A DNA stretch of 64,000 bases from Okamejei kenojei (Eukaryota). Numbering within the stretch: position 1 is the stretch's first letter; each line of letters starts with the position of its first letter. A program made the position numbers. Of the stretch, positions 12,001 through 15,000 are shown one piece after another. Location: positions 17,608,001-17,672,000 of the forward strand of contig CM069141.1 in NCBI GenBank assembly GCA_035221665.1. Direction: 5' to 3'.

Positions 12001-15000
12001 GAAGGGTTGCACTTAAACTGGAGGGGGACCAACATCCTAGTGGGAAGGTTTGCTAATGCTACACGGGAGGGTTTAAACTAGATTGGCGGGGTGGGATCTC
12101 GTGCAAGACAGAGGCACGTGAGAGGCTAGAAGTTGGTATGGAGGATGGTGTGTGAAAGGTTAGTGGACAGAATAGGCAGGTGAAAGGCGGAGAGCGAGAA
12201 AGGAGGGTTGATTTAAACTGCACGTATTTTATTTTAAGGCAGTTGAGCTTAGGGCATGGATAATTACGAGTGACTGGGACCTTGTAGCCAAGACTGAAAC
12301 CTGGTTAAGGGAGGGGCAGGATTGGCAGCTCAATGTTCCAGGGTACAGGAGCTTCAGGAGAGACAGGGGTGAGGGAAAAACAGGAGGGGGGGTTGCATTG
12401 TTGGTTGAGGAGGATTTCACAGCAGTGATCAGAGGTGACATTATGAACTGTTTGTCTAGTGAGCCTGTATGGGTGGAGCTGAGGAACAAGAAAGGGATGG
12501 TCACCTCATTGGGGGTGCACTACAGACCCCCGAATAGTTAACAGGAATTAGAAGAACAAATATGCCGGAGGATTGCAGACAGCTGCAGGTCAAAAAAGGT
12601 TGTTGTTGTAGTAGGGGTTTTAACTTTCCCAATATAGACTGGGAAAATCATAGCGTGAAGGGTTTAAATGGGGCACAATTTCTCAAAAGTGTTCAGGAGA
12701 ATTTTCATAAACAGTATGTAGAGGCCCCCACACGTGAGAGGGCAACGCTGGATCTAGTATTGGGAAATTGGGAAGGGCAAGTTAATTAAGTGTGTGTGGA
12801 GGAGCCTTTTGGGACCAGTGACCACAGTTCGCTTAGGTTTAAGATAGTTATGGACAGGGACAGAGAGGGTCCACGTGTTAAAATGCTCAACTGGGCGTCA
12901 GGCCAACTTTGAGGGTATGAGAGAAGGTCTCGCTCAAGTTGACTGGAGCAGGTTGTTAGATGGGAAAGGAACATTGGTCAAGTGGGATGTTTTTAAAAGG
13001 GTACTGAAGAAAGCTCAGGATGTGTACATCCCCATTAGAGTGGAGGGCAAAGCAGGCAAACGTAAAGGAAGCTTAGCTGACGAGGGTAATTGAGACATTA
13101 GTCAAAAACAAGAAGGATGTATTGGACAGGTATAGGCAGCTGGGATCAAGTGCATCCCTGGAGGAGTTTTGGGAGCTAAGGAGTAAACTAAAAAAGGAAA
13201 TCAAAAGGGCAAAAAGGGGCCAGGAGATAGCTCTGGCGAGTAGTATTAAGGACAATCCCAAAAGATTTTATAAATACACTGGGGGGAAAAGGGTAACTAG
13301 AGAGAGAGTGGGACCTCTAAGGAATCAAAGCGGTCACCTCTGTGTAGAGCCACAGAAGATGGGTAATGTCCTAAATGAGTATTCCTCCTCTGTATTTACC
13401 GAGGAGAAAGACAGTAGGACGGAGGAAATTGGAACAGTCACTGGAAGTGTCTTCAGAGCAGTCAGGGTTACCGTCGAAGAAGTACTGAAGGTACTATCGT
13501 GTATGAAGGTAGACATATCTCCAGGGCCTGATCTGATATATCCAAGGACATTGTGGAAAACTAGAGAGGAAATTGCGGGAGCCCTGGTTGAAATTTACAA
13601 GTCGTCCTTAAATACAGGAGAGTTGCCGGAAGACTGGAGGGTGGCAAATGTTGCATCTCTTTTCAAGAAGGGCTGCAGGAAAAATGCTGGGAGCGAGAGG
13701 CTGGTTAACTTAACATCTGTAGTTGGTTAGTTACTGGAGAGTATTCTGAGGGATGGGATACACAGGCATTTGGATGGGCAAGGGCTGATTAGGGATAGTC
13801 AGCTTGGTTTTGTACGTGGGAGGTCCTGTCTCACAAATCTGATTGATTTTTTTTTTAAGGCGTGACCAAAAGAAATGATGAAGGCAGAGCTGTAGATGTT
13901 GTGTACATGGACTTCAGTAAGGCGTTCGACAAGGTTCCGCATGGTAGGCTGCTCTGGAAGGTTAGATCGTATGGGATCCAAGGGGAGATAGCTGATTGGA
14001 TAGTAAATTGGCTCCATGGAAGGAAACAGAATGTAATGGTGGAAGGTTGCTTCTCAGACTGGAGGCCTGTGACTAGTCAGGGCTCGAAATTAGTGGTTGC
14101 CCGGGTGCCAATGATCACTCAAAGTGCCGACGGGCAACCTAAACGCCGAGTCATTTTGCCCGGCTTGGCACGCAAATACTGGTTTATACCGAAAGGCACA
14201 AAAAACTGGAGAAACTCAGCGGGTCAGGCAGCATCTCTGGCGAATAGGAATGTGGCGTTTTGTGTCGGCGGCGGCAACAGCTGTAACGCGGGGCAAAGAT
14301 GCTAGGAGCGGGGTGACGAAGGGTCAGAGCAAATGACGGGCCCCACACAGCGGCAACGGCGGCCACGACAGCGGCTCCACCGCCTCCTCCTCCCGCACCC
14401 TGCCCGGCAGAAGGAGGCCTTCCTATCCCTCCCTCCCTCCTCCTGGCCTCGGCGTGCGAGAGGGGTTGTTTTGAAAGCGCCATTGGTGGATTTGCAGCAG
14501 TATCTTTTGATTTGCAGGCAGCGGCCGCTATCGCCCTGATAACGGCCACTGCCTGCAAACCCGCTAACCGCGCTTTCATAACAACCCCTCTCGCACGCCG
14601 AGGCCGGGAGGAGGGAGGGAGGGAGAGAGAGAGGGAGGTCTCCTCCCGCCGGGCGGGGTGCGGGAGGAGGAGGCGGTGGAGCCGCTGTCGCGGCCGACTG
14701 TGTTGCCGCTGAAGCAGCTGCACCAAAGATCCTATAGCTATAGGATCTTTGAGCTGCACCATGGCGAGGAGATTCCAACCACCTCCCCCTTTGGCGGCGG
14801 CACTTTGGCGTTGGACAGGGACGGCCAAGGCAGCGGGTGATGTTGTCCGAGGAGCGCTGACCTTCCTTCCTCCCCACCTCCTCTGCCCCTCCCCCCTCTC
14901 CCTTTCTCTCTCTTGTACGCCCTCCTCCACCCTTCTTATCTTGGGACCCGTCCTCTCCATCCTACACTGATCCCCATTCCCTCATCTATTCAGCCCTCAC

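What the first reader, a model, noticed from the sequence alone, without database searches (positions are those of the whole stretch)
14716..14759. 28-bp TIR-only palindrome with 8-bp TSD: candidate P-element-type excision footprint
Seen: agctgcac + CAAAGATCCTATAG + CTATAGGATCTTTG + agctgcac, perfect and without internal sequence. The same 14-mer opens a longer element at 32945. Known: Drosophila P transposase makes 8-bp TSDs and a 17-nt staggered cut, so end-joining leaves both TSDs plus a short piece of each TIR. Vertebrates have P-related elements (zebrafish Pdre, THAP9). Inference: a fairly recent insertion and excision by a P-superfamily transposase in this lineage, or a minimal mobile unit.
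Basis: partly seen in the sequence, partly recalled or inferred. Interest (0 to 1): 0.72.

Follow-up and report, generated by a model that had tools for sequence, protein, structure and literature searches.

The report
Transposon scar: two ends, 8-bp duplication
A perfect 28-base palindrome flanked by an 8-base direct repeat is most likely the scar of a cut-and-paste DNA transposon that landed here and then lost all but its two tips; which transposon family made it cannot be settled from this window.

Summary
AGCTGCAC (14716-14723), a perfect 28-bp palindrome (14724-14751) and AGCTGCAC (14752-14759) are present. It is the only zero-spacer palindrome in the window with arms longer than 8.

The 14-mer recurs exactly at 32945 and with one mismatch at 62125. 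A related ORF from an unnamed public contig (P0001) matches 32943-33053. It covers the 14-mer and the DNA to its right and stops at the CAAAG tip. To the left lies an unrelated Tc1-like gene with its own ends.

Best reading: an insertion with an 8-bp target duplication, followed by loss of the interior. Keeping about 14 bases of each end fits cuts inside the inverted repeat, as in P elements. hAT, Mutator, Tc1 and piggyBac excision does not leave such pieces (papers).

The P assignment is unproven:
- 0 of 403 ORFs matches a P or hAT transposase.
- No complete element or second end is in the window.
- The tip CAAAG also fits hAT.

No genome of this organism could be searched.

The parts
14716..14723 (.). 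left copy of the 8-bp direct repeat AGCTGCAC (target-site duplication)
   Evidence: identical to 14752-14759
14724..14737 (+). left retained transposon end CAAAGATCCTATAG
   Evidence: I10
14738..14751 (-). right retained transposon end, the exact reverse complement of the left one, abutting it with no spacer
14752..14759 (.). right copy of the 8-bp direct repeat AGCTGCAC
32945..32958 (+). exact copy of the 14-mer at the left edge of a repeat that runs rightwards
   Evidence: P0001 matches 33053-32943 (30 of 37 aa) and 33079-33059 in another frame, and ends at the tip
32959..33098 (+). body of that repeat up to a SINE-like insertion that starts near 33099-33106
   Evidence: no hairpin (z = 0.02)
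62125..62138 (+). 13/14 variant CAAAGATCATATAG; 62122-62143 shares 19 of 22 bases with 32942-32963
14078..15901 (.). host of the scar: a 1824-bp non-coding inverted-repeat element (ends CAGGGCTC, 5-bp duplication CTAGT) inserted into a LINE reverse-transcriptase gene

Best explanation
This is the donor-site scar of a cut-and-paste DNA transposon.

An element whose ends read CAAAGATCCTATAG... inserted at AGCTGCAC and duplicated those 8 bases (shown by the structure). Later everything except about 14 bases of each end was lost (shown). The most likely route of loss is inferred: the transposase cut inside its own inverted repeats and left long 3' overhangs of transposon sequence on the donor DNA, and end-joining then ligated the two overhangs head to head.

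That is the chemistry known for P-element transposase (17-nt stagger, 8-bp duplication). If base 15 of the end is C, as in the copy at 62125, two 15-nt overhangs ending in ...TATAGC could pair through their self-complementary GC and give exactly this 28-mer (inference).

The family to which the element belonged is represented by a left end at 32945 and a diverged one at 62125. Its superfamily is not established. P-like is favoured by the shape of the scar only.
For: - Perfect 14+14 palindrome with an 8/8 direct repeat, unique in the window.
- The 14-mer recurs exactly at 32945 and 13/14 at 62125. The 22-mers there share 19 of 22 bases, with 0 matches in 100 shuffles.
- At 32945 homology with P0001 covers the 14-mer and the DNA to its right and stops within 2-4 nt of the CAAAG tip.
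- To the left of 32945 lies the 5' leader of a Tc1-like transposase gene (ATG at 32878-32876 on the minus strand). Its own end is TACAGTGCCCTCC... at 28548-28569.
- At 62125 the sequence to the left is a 63-65-nt tandem array of another element. So in all three comparisons homology ends at or within 3 nt of CAAAG.
- Papers, passages read: P transposase makes a 17-nt staggered cut and 8-bp duplications (PMC7776569; PMC10983969). Zebrafish Pdre2 has 13-bp repeats and an 8-bp duplication. hAT, Transib and Mutator form hairpins on the flank and release flush transposon ends, Tc1/mariner makes simple double-strand cuts, and piggyBac forms hairpins on the transposon end (PMC5499845).
- The scar is younger than its surroundings. 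It shows 0 differences in 22 paired positions, against 79.9% identity between the arms of the adjacent 364-nt hairpin.
Against: - No P-type (Tnp_P_element, THAP) domain in 0 of 403 ORFs of 55 aa or more.
- No second end and no repeated 8-bp flank for the copies at 32945 (flank GAGCTGAG) or 62125 (flank TGTTGGAG) anywhere in the window. No complete element is known.
- The copies at 32945 and 62125 share GAG just left of CAAAG, and P0001 implies at least AG there. The scar has CAC and, on the other arm, GCT. This hints that the family's true tip may lie 3 nt further out, or that insertion prefers such a site.
- AGCTG lies left of the 14-mer at both 14716 and 32937. The alignment 14713-14737 against 32935-32958 has 22 of 25 columns matching, E = 0.02-0.12.
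- The 14-mer shares only CA with the Pdre2 repeat.
- The target and its 3-bp flanks match 7 of 14 positions of the Drosophila P target motif ATRGTCCGGACWAT (my count).
- This is a single locus, so the length kept cannot be compared across scars.
Confidence: 0.45

Rival explanations
1. Internal deletion, not excision. An element of an 8-bp-duplication superfamily, most plausibly hAT, inserted here. It then lost its interior through abortive gap repair or replication slippage, leaving an extreme deletion derivative made of the two tips only.
For: - 8-bp duplication.
- The tip CAAAG fits the hAT terminal pattern YARNG. That pattern is recalled and comes from no call.
- hAT elements are the commonest 8-bp-duplication elements of vertebrates (recalled).
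- No P transposase in the window.
- Another non-coding element with an 8-bp duplication lies in the same window at 61745-62529.
Against: - Both break points would have to fall 14 (or 13 and 15) bases from the two ends.
- CTATAG occurs in direct orientation in both ends. A microhomology-mediated deletion between the two copies would give a single CTATAG and a 22-bp palindrome. Two copies are seen (inference).
- No hAT domain in 0 of 403 ORFs.
Confidence: 0.28
2. Not a transposon end at all. The 14-mer is an internal piece of a dispersed repeat (GAGCAAAGATCMTATAGYRGAG), one copy of which lay at 14716-14737. A repair or replication error, such as fold-back or snap-back synthesis with template switches, made the inverted copy and the 8-bp repeat.
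For: - The copies at 32942-32963 and 62122-62143 agree on 3 bases to the left and 3 of 5 to the right of the 14-mer.
- AGCTG precedes the 14-mer at both 14716 and 32937.
- The scar lies 12 nt from a 364-nt imperfect hairpin, a place prone to such errors.
Against: - Fold-back copying would continue into the reverse complement of the flank (GTGCAGCT). The flank is a direct repeat in perfect register, which would need three precise template switches (inference).
- Flank alignments among the four copies are not better than shuffles upstream (p = 0.12-0.90).
- Leftward homology stops within 3 nt of CAAAG in every comparison.
Confidence: 0.12
3. The 28-mer is itself a minimal mobile unit: a MITE made only of two inverted repeats, moved in trans by a transposase.
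For: Intact ends and an intact 8-bp duplication.
Against: - One copy of the 28-mer in the window. The other two 14-mer sites are single, not palindromic.
- At 28 bp it is far shorter than any mobile element I know of (recalled).
- Absent from 596 Gb of bacterial and archaeal contigs, which is uninformative for an animal.
Confidence: 0.03
4. Assembly, library or vector artefact, such as a palindromic linker or chimeric read junction.
For: Perfect palindromes can arise from library linkers and missed hairpin adapters (recalled). The sequence holds restriction-site-like words.
Against: - An artefact would not produce an 8-bp direct repeat of local sequence.
- The same 14-mer occurs twice more in unrelated contexts and, diverged, in an independent public contig.
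- The only paper holding the 14-mer uses it within an unrelated primer-like string (search listing only).
Confidence: 0.03

Closest known systems
Excision footprints of the Drosophila P element
   Same: An 8-bp target duplication is kept on both sides. A stretch of each inverted repeat, shorter than the 17-nt overhang, is joined head to head. The cause is a cut inside the inverted repeat (PMC7776569 and PMC10983969, passages).
   Different: The ends bear no likeness to the P repeat. No transposase is known for them. The host is an animal with Tc1, Penelope-like and LINE elements, probably a vertebrate. This is a fixed genomic scar, not an experimental revertant. The typical lengths kept in fly footprints are recalled, not read.
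Zebrafish Pdre2 and its internally deleted copies (THAP9-type P elements of vertebrates)
   Same: Short inverted repeats (13 bp there, at least 14 bp here) and an 8-bp duplication. Deleted non-coding copies exist.
   Different: The Pdre2 repeat CATACCTGTCAAC shares only CA with CAAAGATCCTATAG. No subterminal repeats or THAP9-like ORF were found here.
hAT elements and their deletion derivatives (Ac/Ds type)
   Same: 8-bp duplication. The tip CAAAG fits the recalled YARNG pattern.
   Different: hAT excision leaves hairpin-derived changes of the flank, not pieces of the element (PMC5499845). A tips-only derivative of 28 bp is not known to me.
Tc1/mariner footprints
   Same: A scar left by cut-and-paste excision.
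   Different: Tc1/mariner duplicates TA and leaves 2-3 bases per end (recalled). Here the figures are 8 bp and 14 bases. The Tc1-like gene next to 32945 belongs to another element with the end TACAGTGCCCTCC.

Membership tests
P superfamily (P, Pdre, THAP9-type) | 7-8-bp target-site duplication | tested here: met
   AGCTGCAC on both sides, 8/8; the feature itself from PMC7776569 and PMC10983969
P superfamily (P, Pdre, THAP9-type) | short terminal inverted repeats (13-31 bp) | tested here: met
   14+14 perfect inverted ends; the full length of the repeat is unknown because no complete element was found
P superfamily (P, Pdre, THAP9-type) | autonomous copies with the same ends encode a THAP-domain, RNase-H-like, GTP-dependent transposase | tested here: inconclusive
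   0 of 403 ORFs of 55 aa or more in the 64-kb window match a P or THAP family at E <= 0.01; the rest of the genome could not be searched
P superfamily (P, Pdre, THAP9-type) | cleavage about 17 nt inside the inverted repeat, so that donor sites keep pieces of both ends | not testable with these tools
   the scar keeps 14 (or 13 and 15) bases per end, which is compatible; only one scar is available
P superfamily (P, Pdre, THAP9-type) | target preference (Drosophila motif ATRGTCCGGACWAT) | tested here: inconclusive
   AGCAGCTGCACCAT matches 7 of 14 positions, including both outer ones (my count); a fly motif need not hold for another lineage
hAT superfamily | 8-bp target-site duplication | tested here: met
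hAT superfamily | terminal pentamer YARNG (recalled, from no call) | tested here: met
   CAAAG
hAT superfamily | transposase with a hAT dimerisation domain in autonomous copies | tested here: inconclusive
   0 of 403 ORFs; window only
hAT superfamily | excision through hairpins on the flank, releasing flush transposon ends, so footprints hold no element sequence | tested here: not met
   the scar consists of element ends and both flank copies are intact; mechanism from PMC5499845. This excludes a hAT excision footprint, not a hAT deletion derivative
Tc1/mariner | TA duplication and footprints of 2-3 bases (recalled) | tested here: not met
   8-bp duplication and 14 bases per end; the neighbouring Tc1-like gene has a different end
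MITE (mobile non-coding unit) | many copies of the whole unit, each with its own duplication | tested here: inconclusive
   one copy of the 28-mer in 64 kb; genome not searchable

The most novel reading that the evidence does not exclude
A P-type (THAP9-like) transposase that cuts about 14-17 nt inside its inverted repeats has been active in the germ line of this animal lineage, probably a cartilaginous fish. The 28-mer would then be a natural, fixed excision footprint. That would make it a rare direct record of P-type cleavage chemistry in a vertebrate genome. The copy at 32945, 18 kb away and identical in its 14-mer, could be a local re-insertion of the same family.
Probability: 0.2. Interest if true: 0.6.

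Novelty: new member of a known kind. Interest (0 to 1): 0.33.

Why it matters
Scars that keep both target duplications and a fixed length of each transposon end record how a transposase cut its DNA. If more scars of this family exist and all keep 13-17 bases per end, they would show from sequence alone that a P-like enzyme with a deep staggered cut worked in this lineage. They would also give the length of its stagger. As a single locus the scar is a tidy but ordinary relic of DNA-transposon activity inside a nest of other repeats. It has no visible effect on a gene.

Tried and rejected
- **Longer homology around the four 14-mer copies.** Smith-Waterman alignments of 90-nt flanks against 500 shuffles gave upstream p = 0.12-0.90. 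Downstream, only 32945 against 62125 was marginal (p = 0.036, 17 of 23 bases). Similarities I saw by eye (GGTGRTTGGA, CATGGCGAGGAG...) were dropped.
- **Second ends.** No reverse 14-mer with up to 4 mismatches is followed by the matching 8-bp flank.
- **14-kb against 62-kb GC-rich blocks.** A global alignment of the two gave 42% identity, which is no evidence of kinship. One local G-rich match scored 30 against a shuffle maximum of 26 and is low-complexity. Nine GC-rich blocks compared with each other showed no link between these two.
- **Shared hairpin architecture.** Hairpins follow the 14-mer at 62145-62337 (z = -6.7) and lie beside it at 14348-14711. There is none at 32945-33098 (z = 0.02). 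Rejected as a family trait.
- **Degenerate copy at 14294 (CAAAGATGCTAGGA, 4 mismatches).** Better explained as a decayed piece of the abundant SINE-like repeat. At 3 mismatches the counts equal chance.
- **RNA genes.** Rfam gave 0 matches and ARAGORN gave 0 genes.
- **Proteins over the scar.** The 265-aa ORF 14187-14981 (minus strand) had no relatives at near or shorter lengths. No empty-site or filled-site homologue could be seen this way.
- **Representative search.** The 67-aa ORF over 32945 found P0001 only.
- **Literature by sequence.** The 14-mer gave one unrelated paper. Four SINE words gave none.
- **Bacterial and archaeal contigs.** The 28-mer had 0 matches.
- **Taxon from the Atlas.** It returned only 'animal Penelope-like retroelement'.
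- **A 16/17 direct repeat (28300-28315 and 32929-32945).** E = 2.6, taken as chance.

Full report
**1. The observation**

- The two 14-mers are perfectly complementary and abut without a spacer (I10).
- I scanned every possible centre of the window. This is the only zero-spacer palindrome with an arm above 8. Two others have arm 8. Nineteen of 20 shuffles had a longest arm of 7-8 and one had 12.
- The 8/8 direct repeat at fixed positions has a chance of about 1.5e-5 (my arithmetic).
- The CA that follows the right repeat equals the first two bases of the palindrome. The repeat can therefore be read as 8-10 bp, but only 8 bp gives symmetric ends.
- The window holds an N run at 36800-37151, which I left alone.

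**2. Other copies of the 14-mer**

It is exact at 32945 (+) and has one mismatch at 62125 (+). With up to 2 mismatches there are 4 matches against 0.60 expected. With up to 3 mismatches there is no excess, 7 against 6.84. The 22-mers 32942-32963 and 62122-62143 share 19 of 22 bases, which no shuffle gave. They agree on GAG to the left of CAAAG and on 3 of 5 bases to the right of CTATAG.

**3. Is the 14-mer the end of something?**

At 32945 the DNA to the left is the leader of a Tc1-like transposase gene on the minus strand.

- Its N-terminal HTH lies at 32615-32932, with the ATG at 32878-32876, 66 nt from the 14-mer.
- The gene is split by a Penelope-like retroelement (GIY-YIG ORF at 30184-31725) and continues at 29575-29934.
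- It ends in its own inverted repeat, TACAGTGCCCTCCATAATGTTTGG, at 28548-28569.
- That repeat has no second copy in the window, so the Tc1 copy lacks its 5' end.

No eukaryotic DNA collection was available, so I used an open frame that happens to run across the 14-mer (32856-33056, minus strand, 67 aa) as a probe of the protein collections.

- It found one relative, P0001, a 65-aa protein from an unnamed public contig. P0001 matches 30 of 37 residues, and the exhaustive representative search found nothing more.
- Mapped back, P0001 covers 33053-32943, and 33079-33059 in another frame. That is the 14-mer and the roughly 95-135 nt to its right.
- P0001 stops two bases beyond the CAAAG tip.
- Its codons imply a 12/14 version of the 14-mer (my back-translation).

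At 62125 the DNA to the left is a 63-65-nt tandem array belonging to another element.

In all three comparisons, then, leftward homology ends within 3 nt of CAAAG.

Against a clean end:

- The shared GAG (AG in P0001) sits just outside CAAAG.
- No partner end or repeated 8-bp flank exists for either copy.
- AGCTG lies left of the 14-mer at both 14716 and 32937, offset by one base (22 of 25 columns, E = 0.02-0.12).
- Flank alignments are not better than shuffles.

**4. Surroundings of the scar**

- A LINE reverse-transcriptase gene (13077-14077 and 15902 onward) is interrupted, relative to its intact relative at 45098-45842, by an 1824-bp non-coding element at 14078-15901. That element has ends CAGGGCTC and a 5-bp duplication CTAGT.
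- Inside it lie pieces of a SINE-like repeat, which has 21 loci in the window. It also holds a GC-rich block with a 364-nt imperfect hairpin at 14348-14711, 79.9% identity between arms.
- The scar lies 12 nt to the right of that hairpin.
- The scar shows no difference in 22 paired positions (14 arm pairs and 8 duplication pairs). It is therefore younger than the hairpin.
- No other copy of the GC-rich block exists in the window. Its long ORF has no relatives. No empty or filled site could be seen.

**5. Mechanism**

An 8-bp direct repeat around foreign DNA with inverted ends is the signature of transposase integration. This part I take as shown. How the interior was lost is inference.

According to passages I read:

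- hAT, Transib and Mutator transposases form hairpins on the flanking DNA and release flush transposon ends (PMC5499845).
- Tc1/mariner makes simple double-strand cuts (PMC5499845).
- piggyBac forms hairpins on the transposon end (PMC5499845), and the abstract of PMC7351741 says it excises without footprints (search listing).
- P transposase makes an unusually long 17-nt staggered cut inside each end and 8-bp duplications (PMC7776569; PMC10983969).

Of the known chemistries, only the last leaves long pieces of both ends on the donor. The 28-mer can be read as 14+14 joined blunt. If base 15 is C, as at 62125, it can instead be read as two 15-nt overhangs paired through their terminal GC.

The main rival is an extreme internal deletion of a hAT-like element.

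- For it: the 8-bp duplication, and the tip CAAAG fits the recalled YARNG pattern.
- Against it: it needs two break points at matching distances from the ends. It also would most simply have recombined the two direct CTATAG words into one, and that is not seen.

**6. Tests of membership**

- Pfam scans of all 403 stop-to-stop ORFs of 55 aa or more found only Tc1-type domains, reverse transcriptases, an endonuclease fragment, a GIY-YIG domain and a few weak matches below the curated cut-offs. No P, THAP or hAT domain was found.
- The zebrafish Pdre2 repeat (CATACCTGTCAAC) shares only CA with the 14-mer.
- The target matches 7 of 14 positions of the fly P motif.
- The P assignment therefore rests on the shape of the scar alone.

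**7. What stayed unchecked**

- No genome of the source organism, no Dfam or Repbase library, and no metagenome or viral contigs (closed) could be searched.
- The lineage is an animal with Tc1, Penelope-like and LINE elements. That it is a cartilaginous fish is my recollection of the SINE-like repeat and was not tested.
- Papers were seen as follows: PMC10983969, PMC7776569, PMC2577343, PMC5499845 and PMC5381603 as passages found by term; PMC7351741 and PMC11410766 as search listings only. Beall and Rio 1997 and the fly footprint lengths are recalled or cited second-hand.

**8. Verdict**

This is a real, statistically unambiguous transposon scar. It is ordinary in kind, with a shape that points to P-like cleavage without proving it.

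Noticed in passing
14078-15901 (duplication CTAGT at 14073-14077 and 15902-15906): An 1824-bp non-coding element with identical 8-bp tips CAGGGCTC, subterminal TGCC(A)G(A/C)CGGGCAACCT repeats and a 5-bp target duplication. It splits a LINE reverse-transcriptase gene whose intact relative lies at 45098-45842. Superfamily unknown; a 5-bp duplication is unusual for a CAGGG-tipped element.
   Followed up: partly
14348-14711: A 364-nt imperfect palindrome (79.9% between arms, centre near 14530) in a GC-rich, CpG-containing block that is unique in the window. 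Its origin is unexplained.
   Followed up: partly
61745-62529 (ATTTCAGG at 61737-61744 and 62530-62537): A 785-bp GC-rich non-coding element with ends CATGGGCGGAAATC / CAAAGTGCGGAAATC-type (12 of 14 alike; second end reads CAAGTGCGGAAATC) and an 8-bp direct repeat. Inside are three 63-65-nt tandem units (61940-62109) and a 193-nt hairpin (62145-62337, z = -6.7). The 13/14 copy of the 14-mer ends at the element's midpoint. The direct repeat extends imperfectly to 16 nt (13 of 16), so the boundaries are not certain.
   Followed up: partly
28548-32944, minus strand: A Tc1-like element with an IR/DR-type 3' end (TACAGTGCCCTCC...) that lacks its 5' inverted repeat. It is split by a Penelope-like retroelement (RT and GIY-YIG ORFs at 30184-32439) between 10-bp direct repeats at 29922-29931 and 32728-32737. 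It is also split by a SINE-like insertion (29223-29324) between 12-bp direct repeats at 29210-29221 and 29319-29330.
   Followed up: partly
21 loci, e.g. 15500-15720, 33106-33223, 54515-54646: A very abundant repeat of about 100-200 nt with the core CTGGAG(T/A)AACTCAGCGGG.CAGGCAGCATCT. It is often present as an inverted pair, and its long variable target duplications suggest a retroposed SINE. No paper holding its core words was found.
   Followed up: partly
51400-52775, plus strand: A second, unrelated Tc1-like element (end TACAGTGGCTTGCAAAAGTATTCA..., HTH_SB, HTH_Tnp_Tc3_2 and DDE_3 domains) with frame breaks.
   Followed up: no
14760-14970, plus strand: Directly after the right duplication comes caccATGg, opening a 70-codon frame in GC-rich sequence (within the stop-to-stop ORF 14713-14967). 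It has no Pfam match and sits inside nested repeats, so it is probably not a gene.
   Followed up: no
36800-37151: A run of 352 N. The missing right end of the repeat that starts at 32945, or the missing 5' end of the Tc1-like element, could lie in or beyond it.
   Followed up: no
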